64,000 nt of DNA. Origin: a virus. The position numbers were made by a program, and so were the translations under genes. Every line of letters begins with the position of its first letter. Position 1 is the first letter of the stretch. Below the pieces are notes generated by a model that worked only from the letters and a program-made list of their open reading frames with translations, made no database searches and was not told the origin of the DNA. Of the stretch, positions 61,801-64,000 are shown in pieces. The DNA is taken from positions 32,001 to 96,000 of the IMG/VR virus record IMGVR_UViG_3300020162_001876; one strand, 5' to 3'.

Positions 61801-61824
61801 ATAATATTATAAATCTTTAAAAAG

Positions 61825-61850
61825 AAGCCCTAGATATTCTAGGGCTTTTT
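61825..61850 (+). terminator. Intrinsic terminator
   Basis: AAGCCCTAGA-TAT-TCTAGGGCTT + T run. Confidence 0.8.
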
Positions 61851-61859
61851 ATATTTATA
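61851..61859 (+). promoter_or_regulatory. Putative late promoter ATATTTATA
   Basis: Recurrent intergenic motif. Confidence 0.55.
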
Positions 61860-61927: not shown

Positions 61928-62167
61928 ATGGGATTTTTTAGCATTTTTAAGAAATCAAATGATTACAACGAAAAAGTTGTAATAGGATTTCTATCTTTTA
62001 TGGTAATGGTTATCGCAATCGCAATAGACCTAATTACAGGATACATGGGCAAGGCATTGGAATTAAATGAATACATATTTGATGCATTCATGTATATAAC
62101 TCTTGGCAGTTTTCTTCCTGATGTAATTGAAAAGTTTGCCGGTTTTAGAAATAATAAACCAGAATAA
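61928..62167 (+). CDS. Small two-TM membrane protein (holin-like)
   Basis: Two hydrophobic helices; ends EKF + basic tail; upstream of endolysin. Confidence 0.6.
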   Translation: MGFFSIFKKSNDYNEKVVIGFLSFMVMVIAIAIDLITGYMGKALELNEYIFDAFMYITLGSFLPDVIEKFAGFRNNKPE

Positions 62168-62573
62168 ACTTAAAATCTTGAAAAACTTAAATGAATTTAT
62201 ACCTGCATTTCTAAATGGGGGATGGGTAGTATTATTAATAGGGGCAGCAGGAATGATTGCCCGATTAGTGACTTCCTCTTCTCCTGAAGAAACCAGTACC
62301 AATAATATTGTTAAAAATATCATAGCAGCTATGATTACTTCTTTATTGGCTTGGTTTATCCTAGAACAATTTGAAATTGACTCATTATATAAGGCTTTAA
62401 TTTACGGTTTAGGAGGTCTAAATTCACCAGAAATCTTAAGTGGAATTTTAAAAATATCTACATCATTCTCAAATAACCCAGGTGAGTTCCTTTCAAATAT
62501 AAAATCAGGTAAGGTACAAACATCTCCTAAAAGAAATACAAAAGTCATAAAAAGACCAGTTAAAAGAAAATAA
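62127..62573 (+). CDS. Three-TM holin-like protein (start possibly TTG 62178)
   Basis: GAAGMIARL, AAMITSLLAWF, GLGGL.SPEIL; basic C-tail. Confidence 0.6.
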   Translation: MKSLPVLEIINQNKLKILKNLNEFIPAFLNGGWVVLLIGAAGMIARLVTSSSPEETSTNNIVKNIIAAMITSLLAWFILEQFEIDSLYKALIYGLGGLNSPEILSGILKISTSFSNNPGEFLSNIKSGKVQTSPKRNTKVIKRPVKRK

Positions 62574-62577
62574 TTAT

Positions 62578-63279
62578 ATGAACAACCAAAAGACATTTAT
62601 GTTAGTTTTAACCTCAATCGTTCTACTTATTGCAGGTTATGGAATTTATGTAGAGAAGAGTATTAAAGCTTCTGCTACAACAATCTTAGAGGATAGGCTA
62701 AAACCTGTACCTCTTATCTCTCACAGATTCGATTACTATGGAACTACCATCCAGGATAACTTTTCCAGTAATGTAGTTAACTATGAACAATTACTAGCCA
62801 ATAGAGGGGAAATGGAAAGAGTAAAGAGAGAAACTGAAGAAGGTTGGAATGCTTACAAAGAAACTTACTTAACTCCTGAAGAAGCAAAATTAGTAGAACG
62901 TGCTCAAAAGGGAATGGATGAGGCTGATGCTTTGGTTAGTTTATTATTAGAAAAAGCAGTTACTGATAGAAAAGCAGTAGATAGTATTCTAAAAACTGGA
63001 ATATTAAATGAAAAAATCACTCCTGTACTTGACGATACCAATGCTTTAATGGATTTACAAACTGAGGTTGGTAAACAAGAAACTATCAAAATGATTGAGT
63101 TACTTAAAAACTTTTCAAATTTTATGATGGGTGCCTTAGCTTTAGCAATTGTATTACTAGGTTCTATAGTATATCCAATGATAAAGAAGCCAAAAGAACA
63201 ACCTAAAACAAGAAGAAAAGCTCCTGTTAAAAAACCAGCGGCTAGAAAAACAACACCTAGAAAAACTGTTAAAAAATAA
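62578..63279 (+). CDS. Membrane protein with chemoreceptor-type four-helix-bundle (4HB_MCP-like) periplasmic domain and no signalling domain
   Basis: TM1, TILEDRLKP, WNAYKETYLTPEEAKL, LMDLQ.EVG, TM2, Lys/Arg/Pro tail. Confidence 0.7.
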   Translation: MNNQKTFMLVLTSIVLLIAGYGIYVEKSIKASATTILEDRLKPVPLISHRFDYYGTTIQDNFSSNVVNYEQLLANRGEMERVKRETEEGWNAYKETYLTPEEAKLVERAQKGMDEADALVSLLLEKAVTDRKAVDSILKTGILNEKITPVLDDTNALMDLQTEVGKQETIKMIELLKNFSNFMMGALALAIVLLGSIVYPMIKKPKEQPKTRRKAPVKKPAARKTTPRKTVKK

Positions 63280-63719
63280 TGAAAAAACTTTTTATCTTTT
63301 TTATATTTTTAATATCTTTTATGAGCTATTCTCAAGCTAAATATTATATATGTTTTGCCCCAAATATAGCTTTTAATTCAACCACCCAAGATCCCAAAAA
63401 CTTATTAGGATGTAACATAGAAATAGGTAAGTATGTAGGAAATACTTCTATAGGAATTACAACAGGTTTATACTCTATAGAGAGTAAATCATTATACTCA
63501 GAATTAATTGTCACTGTACCTATCAGTAAAGAATATCCAATTTCAATATCAGCAGGAGTAGGATGGTTTTATTTCCAAAAAGATATTACAATGGAGTATG
63601 ATATTAACTATGCTTTTAAACTTAAAGATGATTTATCACTTATAATAACATTAAATAATCAAAGTGCTTTTGGTACTACTTCACAAGCTTTTTGCATAGG
63701 GTTAAATAAGGATTTTTAA
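63279..63719 (+). CDS. Secreted small outer-membrane beta-barrel-like protein
   Basis: MKK + hydrophobic signal peptide (SYSQA); alternating beta strands; C-terminal Phe. Confidence 0.55.
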   Translation: MKKLFIFFIFLISFMSYSQAKYYICFAPNIAFNSTTQDPKNLLGCNIEIGKYVGNTSIGITTGLYSIESKSLYSELIVTVPISKEYPISISAGVGWFYFQKDITMEYDINYAFKLKDDLSLIITLNNQSAFGTTSQAFCIGLNKDF

Positions 63720-63722
63720 TTA

Positions 63723-63731
63723 AATATTTAT
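63723..63731 (+). promoter_or_regulatory. Putative late promoter AATATTTAT
   Basis: Recurrent intergenic motif. Confidence 0.55.
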
Positions 63732-63752
63732 TATAAATAAAAACCACATAAT

Positions 63753-64000
63753 ATGAGTTTAACATCACTACAGACTAAAATTGGAGTAGCAGCTGACGGA
63801 GCATTTAGCCCAGGCACAATGAAAAAAGCAATGGAGTTTTATAAATTAACTCCAGTAAGAGCAGCACATTTCTTTGCTCAAACCTCTCACGAAACAGGAG
63901 GGTTTAAAGCATTCTCGGAAAATTTAAACTACTCAGCACAAGGTCTACAAGGTATATTTGGAAAATATTTTCCAGGTAATTTAGAAGAATCTTACGCTAG
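63753..64000 (+). CDS. GH19-family endolysin, 3'-partial (absent from ORF track)
   Basis: MSLTSLQTKIGVAADGAFSPGT...AAHFFAQTSHETGGF..FSENLNYSA; open to window end. Confidence 0.85.
   Translation, partial: MSLTSLQTKIGVAADGAFSPGTMKKAMEFYKLTPVRAAHFFAQTSHETGGFKAFSENLNYSAQGLQGIFGKYFPGNLEESYA

What the first reader, a model, noticed from the sequence alone, without database searches (positions are those of the whole stretch)
61928..64000. Lysis module containing a chemoreceptor-type sensor with no output domain
Seen: two holin-like membrane genes, then TM-[TILEDRLKP...WNAYKETYLTPEEAKL...LMDLQ]-TM with only a short basic cytoplasmic tail, then a secreted beta-rich protein, then a GH19 endolysin; the first four are tightly packed behind one late motif. 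Established: those motifs typify the four-helix-bundle ligand-binding domain of MCPs and histidine kinases; T4 lysis inhibition works through a periplasmic antiholin. Inference: a periplasmic sensor coupling an external cue to holin triggering, i.e. environment-responsive lysis timing. Alternatives: a non-canonical spanin component, a decoy for host receptors, or a passenger gene taken from the host.
Basis: partly seen in the sequence, partly recalled or inferred. Interest (0 to 1): 0.8.

Follow-up and report, generated by a model that had tools for sequence, protein, structure and literature searches.

The report
Chemoreceptor-type sensor paired with phage holin
A family of uncultivated Flavobacterium-type phages carries, inside its cell-bursting gene cluster, a membrane protein that is just the outward-facing sensor part of a bacterial chemoreceptor. 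It always sits directly after a small holin-like gene, which suggests (unproven) a new way for a phage to tune when it bursts its host.

Summary
ORF 62578-63279 (233 aa) is TM1, a four-helix-bundle sensor, TM2 and a 31-residue basic disordered tail. It passes the Pfam 4HB_MCP_1 threshold. A periplasm-only profile still scores real MCPs and histidine kinases at 58-70 bits. The AF2 model best matches MCP ligand-binding domains. There is no HAMP or output domain in any full-length relative (212-253 aa).

- The second "holin" starts at TTG 62178 (131 aa, not 148).
- The "secreted beta-rich protein" is an 8-stranded outer-membrane barrel.
- The only holin above a Pfam threshold (Phage_holin_4_1) lies after the endolysin, outside the window.
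- The "late" motif also precedes nrdB.

Synteny across 159 IMG/VR loci (73 distinct complete sensor genes):
- The 131-aa protein lies directly upstream in 73/73.
- The barrel follows in 57/72, so it is accessory.
- An endolysin lies within 2.5 kb in 28/30, and four unrelated endolysin types occur.

No copy was found in 50,697 isolated phage genomes or about 185,000 prokaryote genomes.

Best reading (about 0.45): a holin-partner regulator, antiholin-like, whose periplasmic bundle sets lysis timing. Sensing, binding and any timing effect are untested. First readers of this scan flagged the same family in another genome.

The parts
61822..61850 (+). Terminator-like hairpin that ends the nrdA unit, so the module starts a new unit
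   Evidence: 13-pair stem with 5 GC pairs, followed by a T run
61851..61858 (+). ATATTTAT, a copy of a strand-biased promoter-like motif, 77 nt before the first gene
   Evidence: The longer form AATATTTAT lies 18 of 19 times on the + strand, with 19 copies found against 9.3 expected. It also precedes nrdB (59071), so it is not shown to be late-specific.
61928..62167 (+). p79: small membrane protein with one strong TM (18-36) and a weaker hydrophobic stretch; holin-like by form only
   Evidence: No family match. The family was found in 69/78 loci, either before p131 or directly before the endolysin.
62178..62573 (+). p131: two-TM membrane protein (about 13-31 and 44-63) with a +10 C-terminal tail; holin-type and the constant upstream partner of the sensor protein. 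The ORF is open from TTG 62127, but homologues start here.
   Evidence: 13 of 17 family members hit Phage_holin_3_3 below threshold, best E 2.6e-5. phrog_6384 holin E 3.7e-4. Nearest ESM Atlas clusters are named holin or PF16083. hhalign against P1 LydA is weak, probability 2%.
62578..63279 (+). p233: TM1 (aa 7-25), periplasmic four-helix bundle (aa 26-182), TM2 (aa 183-202), basic disordered tail (aa 203-233). It is an MCP-type sensor module without an output domain.
62653..63123 (+). Periplasmic 4HB_MCP_1 domain of p233
   Evidence: A periplasm-only HMM scores MCPs and histidine kinases at 58-70 bits. Shared signature: DR(V/L)xP, W..Y..TYLTPEE, L.(D/E)LQ. Foldseek best hits are the Vc1313, MCP2201, Tar and Tsr ligand-binding domains, TM-score up to 0.83 on the target. 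Omega is 0.04-0.13.
63279..63719 (+). p146: signal peptide plus an 8-stranded outer-membrane beta-barrel ending in NKDF; an accessory member of the module
   Evidence: AF2 pLDDT 87.9 with 8 strands. Foldseek hits: Ail, OmpX, OmpA-TM, NspA, OprF-N, at E 2e-5 to 1e-3. It follows p233 in 57/72 distinct loci.
63723..63731 (+). AATATTTAT motif, 22 nt before the endolysin start codon
63753..64000 (+). 5' part of the GH19 endolysin. It is complete at 203 aa beyond the window and has no signal or TM segment.
   Evidence: Glyco_hydro_19 E 1.2e-8; phrog_181 endolysin E 1.7e-62. 74.6% nt identity to the endolysin of Flavobacterium phage immuto.

Best explanation
p233 is the sensor module of a chemoreceptor or histidine kinase (TM1, periplasmic four-helix bundle, TM2) that a lineage of Flavobacteriia-type phages has kept without any HAMP or kinase-control part. 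It is wired into the lysis cassette as the fixed partner of a small holin-type protein, p131.

Proposed mechanism:
- p233 sits in the inner membrane, probably as an MCP-like dimer.
- Its two TM helices, and possibly its basic tail, contact p131 (and perhaps p79) and hold back or gate hole formation, in the manner of an antiholin.
- The state of the periplasmic bundle, bound or not to a small molecule or a periplasmic protein, shifts helix alpha4-TM2 as in chemoreceptors. That changes the moment of triggering.
- The outer-membrane barrel p146, where present, is an accessory part. It could deliver or modulate the input, or act separately on the outer membrane.

Shown: domain identity, topology, absence of an output domain, the obligate gene pairing with p131, embedding in lysis cassettes, and purifying selection on the periplasmic domain.

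Inferred: the physical contact with p131, the direction of the effect (delay or acceleration), and the existence and nature of a cue.
For: Domain identity:
- Pfam 4HB_MCP_1 above threshold.
- The family profile finds 954 proteins at E<=1e-3. After the family itself, these are MCPs (4HB_MCP_1+HAMP+MCPsignal) and a PAS histidine kinase at E 1e-17 to 1e-11.
- The score stays at 58-70 bits with the TM segments removed, and the signature motifs align.
- The AF2 model (pLDDT 76) is closest to MCP 4HB ligand-binding domains.

No output: only a 31-residue tail of net charge +14, with pLDDT below 50 from residue 209. All full-length relatives are 212-253 aa.

Pairing:
- p131 lies directly upstream in 73/73 distinct complete genes. 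The only loci with p131 but no complete sensor ORF are cut by the contig end.
- Start and stop codons nearly touch.
- p131 has holin form and weak holin-superfamily-III signals.

Lysis context:
- The endolysin next to the module is GH19, Peptidase_M15_3, a phrog_33083-type enzyme or an amidase. It lies within 2.5 kb in 28/30 loci with both flanks present.
- Phage_holin_4_1 lies beside the module in several lineages.

Constraint: omega is 0.036 for alpha1 and 0.066 for alpha4. That is lower than in the TM helices (0.19-0.23) and the tail (0.38), so the periplasmic domain is not a mere spacer. alpha1, lower alpha4 and both TM helices are the most conserved parts.

Precedents:
- T4 RI is a periplasmic antiholin (PMC8385771, PMC11413866).
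- In P1 the gene after holin lydA is its antiholin lydB (PMC9025707).
- GlnX is a 4HB membrane protein that signals by protein contact without an enzymatic output (PMC9769921).
Against: - There is no experiment of any kind, and no isolated phage carries the module.
- p131 is below every family threshold, and hhalign to P1 LydA gives 2% probability. Its holin identity is therefore itself an inference.
- The only periplasmic part of p131 is a variable loop of about 12 residues. Any contact would have to be through the membrane or the cytoplasm.
- Most residues conserved in the phage family are the general signature of this MCP subfamily. They argue for the fold, not for a particular ligand.
- The role of the barrel (57/72 loci) is not explained by this model.
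- The window's phage also has a threshold-passing holin after the endolysin, so p131 and p233 may be accessory to lysis rather than central.
Confidence: 0.45

Rival explanations
1. Two-component holin without sensing. p131 and p233 (perhaps with p79) together form the membrane lesion. The four-helix bundle is only a structural or oligomerising ectodomain, comparable to the large periplasmic domain of T4 holin T. No cue is read.
For: The gene pair is obligate. TM1 and TM2 carry conserved small-residue positions (A19, G22, G185, A188-A190, G195-S196) suited to helix packing. Both proteins have the basic C-terminal tails typical of holins. Several lineages show no other holin next to the endolysin.
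Against: The periplasmic helices are under stronger purifying selection than the TM helices. The domain keeps the full sequence signature of working sensor modules. A plain spacer would be expected to drift. Phage_holin_4_1 is present beside the module in the window's lineage and in the barrel-less lineage.
Confidence: 0.2
2. Envelope-spanning outer-membrane disruptor (non-canonical spanin). p233 is the inner-membrane part and the barrel p146 is the outer-membrane part. Together they break the outer membrane after the wall is degraded.
For: The gene order is inner-membrane helical protein then outer-membrane protein, with overlapping stop and start codons, next to an endolysin. No lipoprotein-type o-spanin is seen in the cassette. 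The barrel is a confident OM fold. An earlier first-reader note (e1-6003261) read the barrel this way.
Against: The barrel is absent in 15/72 distinct loci, while p131-p233 stays intact. p233 has both ends in the inner membrane. Its bundle is about 37 residues per helix, roughly 5-6 nm by my estimate from helix length, which is too short to span a periplasm. A separate overlapping pair follows the endolysin in the window's phage (L003 5378-5743 and 5652-6053) and in barrel-less lineages: a TM-coiled-coil protein and a signal-peptide protein. It has the typical spanin gene layout.
Confidence: 0.1
3. Not a lysis function. The module is an envelope device for superinfection exclusion, receptor masking or envelope remodelling, and it merely travels with the lysis genes.
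For: From general knowledge, phages encode small OM barrels (lambda Lom) and inner-membrane exclusion proteins (T4 Imm, Sp). Timing of expression is unknown, and the promoter-like motif is shared with nrdB.
Against: The module stays beside the endolysin while the endolysin family changes four times and the flanking genes differ. p79 moves between the two ends of the module but stays next to the endolysin. The partner has holin-like features.
Confidence: 0.1
4. Decoy or dominant-negative copy of a host sensor. It would heterodimerise with a host 4HB receptor or kinase and silence it during infection.
For: It is a sensor module cut off exactly after TM2. 4HB sensors act as dimers (established for Tar and Tsr).
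Against: No close cellular relative exists. The best score is E 1e-17, against 1e-60 to 1e-99 within the family. Nothing was found in one genome of each of about 185,000 species. A decoy would be expected to track its host target. This reading does not explain the fixed pairing with p131.
Confidence: 0.05

Closest known systems
4HB_MCP_1 sensor modules of methyl-accepting chemotaxis proteins and sensor kinases (Pfam PF12729; structures such as Vc1313-LBD 8bsa, MCP2201, Tar, Tsr)
   Same: TM1, an up-down four-helix bundle and TM2. Pfam match above threshold. Shared motifs DR(V/L)xP, W..Y..TYLTPEE and L.(D/E)LQ. Predicted fold has TM-score 0.78-0.84 on the solved domains.
   Different: No HAMP, MCPsignal, HisKA or any other output; only a 31-residue basic tail. 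It is encoded by virulent phages inside a lysis cassette. Family-specific motif SHRFDYYG(T/S) stands where MCPs have (I/V)SDxYAV.
T4 antiholin RI (and ICP1 lysis inhibition)
   Same: A phage protein with an alpha-helical periplasmic domain that is thought to read a periplasmic signal and set holin triggering (PMC8385771, PMC11413866, PMC7182436). The proposed role is the same.
   Different: No sequence relation was found (no PHROG or Pfam link). RI is a small soluble periplasmic protein that binds the large periplasmic domain of holin T. p233 has two TM anchors, and p131 has almost no periplasmic part. Function is untested here.
P1 LydA holin / LydB antiholin gene pair
   Same: A holin-superfamily-III-type gene directly followed by its regulator gene. 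p131 family members hit the LydA Pfam model weakly.
   Different: LydB has no TM segment and no 4HB (PMC9025707). hhalign of the p131 family against LydA gives only 2% probability.
GlnX of Corynebacterium glutamicum
   Same: A membrane protein with periplasmic 4HB sensor folds and no enzymatic output. It passes a signal by protein contact (PMC9769921).
   Different: GlnX is cellular, 501 aa, has four TM helices and tandem bundles, and partners with the kinase PknG and the binding protein GlnH. There is no link to lysis.
Two-component spanins (lambda Rz/Rz1)
   Same: A gene for an inner-membrane helical protein is followed, with overlap, by a gene for an outer-membrane protein beside the endolysin.
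   Different: p233 has two anchors and no free periplasmic C-terminus. p146 is a barrel, not a lipoprotein. The barrel is dispensable in 15/72 loci.

Membership tests
4HB_MCP_1 sensory module (PF12729) | Match to the family profile above the curated gathering score | tested here: met
   31.5 bits against a cut-off of 27, E 1.6e-7, covering profile positions 13-174 of 181. PF12729 is precomputed on nearly all relatives.
4HB_MCP_1 sensory module (PF12729) | The domain lies between two transmembrane helices, i.e. it is extracytoplasmic | tested here: met
   Hydropathy peaks at 7-25 and 184-202. Net charge is +1 at the N-terminus, -7 in the domain and +14 in the tail.
4HB_MCP_1 sensory module (PF12729) | Up-down four-helix bundle fold | tested here: met
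   The AF2 model has helices 2-62 (break at 42), 69-94, 100-129 and 142-202, with pLDDT 76. The best Foldseek hits are MCP 4HB domains, but E is only 3e-3.
4HB_MCP_1 sensory module (PF12729) | Homology of the periplasmic part itself to sensor modules of proven MCP or kinase architecture | tested here: met
   A periplasm-only HMM scores 58-70 bits on proteins shown to carry HAMP+MCPsignal or PAS+HATPase. No hit to solved PDB sequences at E<=1.
4HB_MCP_1 sensory module (PF12729) | Binds a ligand or partner and forms a homodimer | not testable with these tools
There is no biochemistry.
Methyl-accepting chemotaxis protein / sensor kinase (whole receptor) | Cytoplasmic HAMP plus a signalling or kinase domain | tested here: not met
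   Only 31 residues follow TM2. No other Pfam match at E<=1. All full-length relatives are 212-253 aa.
Antiholin / holin regulator (functional class) | Encoded with, and specific for, a holin | tested here: inconclusive
   The partner p131 is upstream in 73/73 loci. But p131 is holin-like only by form and by sub-threshold matches.
Antiholin / holin regulator (functional class) | Binds the holin and changes lysis timing | not testable with these tools
   Needs expression and lysis curves.
Two-component spanin | The i-spanin has a single N-terminal anchor and a free periplasmic coiled-coil C-terminus | tested here: not met
   Two TM helices, with the C-terminus in the cytoplasm.
Two-component spanin | The o-spanin is an outer-membrane lipoprotein with a lipobox cysteine, and it always co-occurs with the i-spanin | tested here: not met
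   p146 has a signal peptide ending YSQ without a lipobox and folds as a barrel. It is absent in 15/72 loci.
Holin superfamily III, LydA type (PF16083), for p131 | Match to the family profile above the gathering score | tested here: not met
   20 bits against a cut-off of 28.4. 13 of 17 members hit below threshold, best E 2.6e-5. hhalign to P1 LydA gives 2% probability.

The most novel reading that the evidence does not exclude
These phages have turned a chemoreceptor sensor module into the input device of their lysis clock. A periplasmic cue would be read by the four-helix bundle and passed through TM2 directly to a holin, with no enzyme in between. Candidate cues are a metabolite, a wall fragment, or a product of superinfection that enters through or is reported by the phage's own outer-membrane barrel. 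This would be a ligand-gated holin system and a lysis-inhibition-type decision outside the T-even, N4 and ICP1 phages.
Probability: 0.25. Interest if true: 0.85.

Novelty: new variant of a known kind. Interest (0 to 1): 0.62.

Why it matters
Lysis timing sets burst size and is one of the few points where a virulent phage is known to take in information; T4 lysis inhibition is the classic case. A holin partner built from a bona fide ligand-sensor module would make "what does a phage sense before it lyses?" directly testable. The periplasmic domain (residues 27-182) can be produced and screened for ligands.

It would also show that a receptor module can signal without any enzymatic output, which is of interest for engineered, ligand-triggered lysis.

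The family is common in environmental Flavobacteriia-type phages (more than 100 contigs of up to 322 kb) and absent from cultured phages. It therefore also points to a gap in what isolates tell us about lysis in Bacteroidota, where canonical lipoprotein spanins are not evident.

Tried and rejected
Synteny was taken from IMG/VR loci instead.
- tblastn of p233, p131 and p146 against 50,697 isolated phage genomes gave no match.
- The scan of genome contigs with the family alignment found no relative. This rejects a prophage or recent host origin.
- The profile search of PDB sequences gave nothing at E<=1. I therefore could not map the ligand-binding residues of Tar, Tsr or Vc1313 onto p233.
- hhalign of the p131 family against P1 LydA (2%) and against the phage's own Phage_holin_4_1 holin (0.8%) shows no usable relation.
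- A cleavable signal peptide in p233 (ASA at 31-33) was considered and rejected. Position -3 is K, E, T or Q in relatives, so it is not a conserved signal-peptidase site.
- An early impression that conservation is confined to the membrane-proximal half was dropped. alpha1 is conserved along its whole length, and most conserved residues are the generic MCP-subfamily signature.
- Literature searches for 4HB_MCP with phage and lysis, and for antiholin with four-helix bundle, found no description of such a protein.
Full report
**What is there.** The window is bases 32001-96000 of a 110,998-bp IMG/VR virus record estimated to be 68% complete. Its nearest cultured relative is Flavobacterium phage immuto, a 160-kb phage. 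NrdA is 62.5% identical at the protein level and the endolysin is 74.6% identical at the DNA level.

After a terminator-like hairpin at 61822-61850, five genes follow on the + strand:
- p79 (61928-62167)
- a second membrane protein
- p233 (62578-63279)
- p146 (63279-63719)
- a GH19 endolysin starting at 63753

The gaps are 10 nt and 4 nt, then a 1-nt overlap, then 33 nt. Fetching the DNA beyond the window (L003) shows that the endolysin is 203 aa. It is followed by a 196-aa protein of unknown function and a 141-aa holin that passes the Pfam Phage_holin_4_1 threshold (28.7 vs 22.2 bits). Then comes an overlapping gene pair, a TM-coiled-coil protein (121 aa) and a signal-peptide protein (133 aa), laid out like spanin genes. 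So the only threshold-passing holin of this phage lies outside the finding.

**The sensor protein.**
- p233 matches Pfam 4HB_MCP_1 above the gathering score and matches nothing else.
- Hydropathy and charge give the MCP topology: N-in, TM1 7-25, an acidic periplasmic domain, TM2 184-202, and a tail of net charge +14.
- The AF2 model (pLDDT 76; tail below 50 from residue 209) is a four-helix bundle continuous with both TM helices.
- Its best structural neighbours are the 4HB ligand-binding domains of Vc1313, MCP2201, Tar, Tsr, a sensor kinase and NarQ. TM-scores reach 0.83, although the Foldseek E-values are only 3e-3.
- A profile of 21 family members, searched against 1.84 billion representatives, finds eight full-length family clusters (212-239 aa, E below 1e-60). 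The score then drops sharply to E 1e-17 and weaker.
- Ten of these weaker hits were scanned against Pfam, and all ten carry 4HB_MCP_1. Three are full MCPs (4HB_MCP_1+HAMP+MCPsignal) and one is a PAS histidine kinase. The rest are shorter (187-267 aa), with or without HAMP.
- Because TM segments can inflate such scores, I rebuilt the profile from residues 27-180 only. The same proteins still score 58-70 bits.
- No member of the phage family has an output domain.
- The periplasmic helices are under the strongest purifying selection in the protein. Omega is 0.036 for alpha1 and 0.066 for alpha4, against 0.19-0.23 for the TM helices. dS is about 1, so these values are rough.

**The neighbours.**
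- Homologues fix the start of the second gene at TTG 62178, giving 131 aa. It has two TM helices, a 12-residue periplasmic loop and a +10 tail.
- 13 of 17 p131 family members hit the LydA holin model below threshold. The nearest ESM Atlas clusters are holin-named. hhalign to P1 LydA itself is negative. I therefore call it holin-type, not LydA.
- p79 has no family.
- p146 is a confident 8-stranded outer-membrane barrel.

**Synteny.** Two IMG/VR scans gave 159 loci, which I analysed with family HMMs and BLAST. After removing identical sensor genes, 73 distinct complete genes remain.
- p131 is directly upstream in 73/73. The five loci with p131 but no complete sensor ORF are all cut by the contig end.
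- The barrel follows in 57/72. In 15/72 it is missing while p131-p233 is intact. This includes a whole lineage with the order Phage_holin_4_1, p131, p233, p79-like, endolysin, then the overlapping TM-coiled-coil and signal-peptide pair.
- The 133-aa signal-peptide protein of the window's phage is homologous to its counterpart in that lineage (35% identity, E 4e-9).
- p79 relatives lie either before p131 or just before the endolysin.
- The adjacent endolysin is GH19, Peptidase_M15_3, a phrog_33083-type enzyme or an amidase. It lies within 2.5 kb in 28 of the 30 loci with both flanks present.
- A module that stays beside the endolysin while the endolysin family is exchanged four times is strong contextual evidence that it belongs to lysis.
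- Immuto has the same endolysin-holin core but lacks the module.
- No isolated phage and no prokaryote genome carries it.

**Interpretation.** The constant unit is p131 plus p233. That fits a holin with a dedicated partner better than it fits a spanin. p233 has both ends in the inner membrane, the barrel is optional, and a better spanin-like pair exists elsewhere in the cassette.

The domain is a genuine, strongly constrained sensor module, and precedents exist:
- a periplasmic antiholin, T4 RI (PMC8385771, PMC11413866)
- the lydA-lydB gene order in P1 (PMC9025707)
- GlnX, a 4HB protein that signals without an enzymatic output (PMC9769921)

I therefore commit to a holin-partner regulator that couples the state of its periplasmic bundle to hole formation. 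Confidence is about 0.45 for "regulates lysis through p131". It is lower, about 0.25, for the stronger claim that a specific cue is sensed.

The weak points are real:
- The holin identity of p131 is inferred.
- The periplasmic loop of p131 is tiny, so contact must be through the membrane.
- The conserved residues largely define the fold rather than a ligand site.
- The barrel is unexplained.

The rivals, in order of my confidence, are a non-sensing two-component holin, a barrel-linked outer-membrane disruptor, an exclusion device and a decoy. They are set out above with their tests.

**Novelty.** Literature searches found no description of a 4HB_MCP-type protein in a phage lysis cassette. First readers of this scan flagged the same family in another genome (e1-5805517, e1-5805540) and flagged the barrel here (e1-6003261). 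Those notes are unchecked and do not count as evidence. I rate this a new variant of a known kind: a holin regulator built from a chemoreceptor sensor. It is real, widespread in uncultivated phages and testable, but no function has been shown.

Noticed in passing
L003:5378-5743 and L003:5652-6053 (G000 97377-98052, beyond the window end): An overlapping gene pair lies after the holin. One gene encodes a 121-aa protein with an N-terminal TM and a coiled coil. The other encodes a 133-aa protein with a signal peptide (no lipobox cysteine) and a hydrophobic C-terminus. The layout is spanin-like but there is no lipoprotein. In a barrel-less lineage the second protein is 155 aa and ends in EYNLF, like an outer-membrane beta-signal (35% identity, E 4e-9).
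   Followed up: partly
window, 19 sites, e.g. 59071, 63723; ATATTTAT at 61851: AATATTTAT occurs 19 times against 9.3 expected, and 18 of 19 copies are on the + strand. It sits shortly upstream of genes, including nrdB and the endolysin. This is probably a phage promoter element, and it is not specific to late genes.
   Followed up: partly
L003:4373-4963 (beyond the window end): A 196-aa protein with no family match is inserted between the endolysin and the Phage_holin_4_1 holin. tblastn found it in only two other loci (L008, L020), so it is a lineage-specific insertion in the cassette.
   Followed up: no
L014:61-2445 (contig of 322,477 bp), also L013, L015, L016: A close relative (sensor 78-79% identical), one copy of it on a jumbo-size contig, has only GH19, p131 and p233. 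The barrel and p79 are missing, and a very acidic 219-aa protein follows instead.
   Followed up: partly
L064:5054-5596 and L023:4949-5554: In the M15-endolysin lineages, a 180-200-aa protein with an N-terminal anchor and a beta-rich C-terminal half (ending YSLKL or WKIKLK) sits just upstream of p131. It could be another envelope-spanning lysis component. No family match was found.
   Followed up: no
L132:2677-2994 and relatives (L135, L153, L156): A 105-aa protein with a coiled coil and a C-terminal TM (tail-anchored; from memory, XhlA-like in form) lies directly upstream of p131 in some barrel-less loci, at the position where L141 has a Phage_holin_4_1 gene.
   Followed up: no
window 62127-62177: The p131 reading frame is open 51 nt upstream of its conserved start and overlaps the end of p79. 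A longer 148-aa form from TTG 62127 cannot be excluded in this phage, but it is not conserved in relatives that start with ATG.
   Followed up: partly
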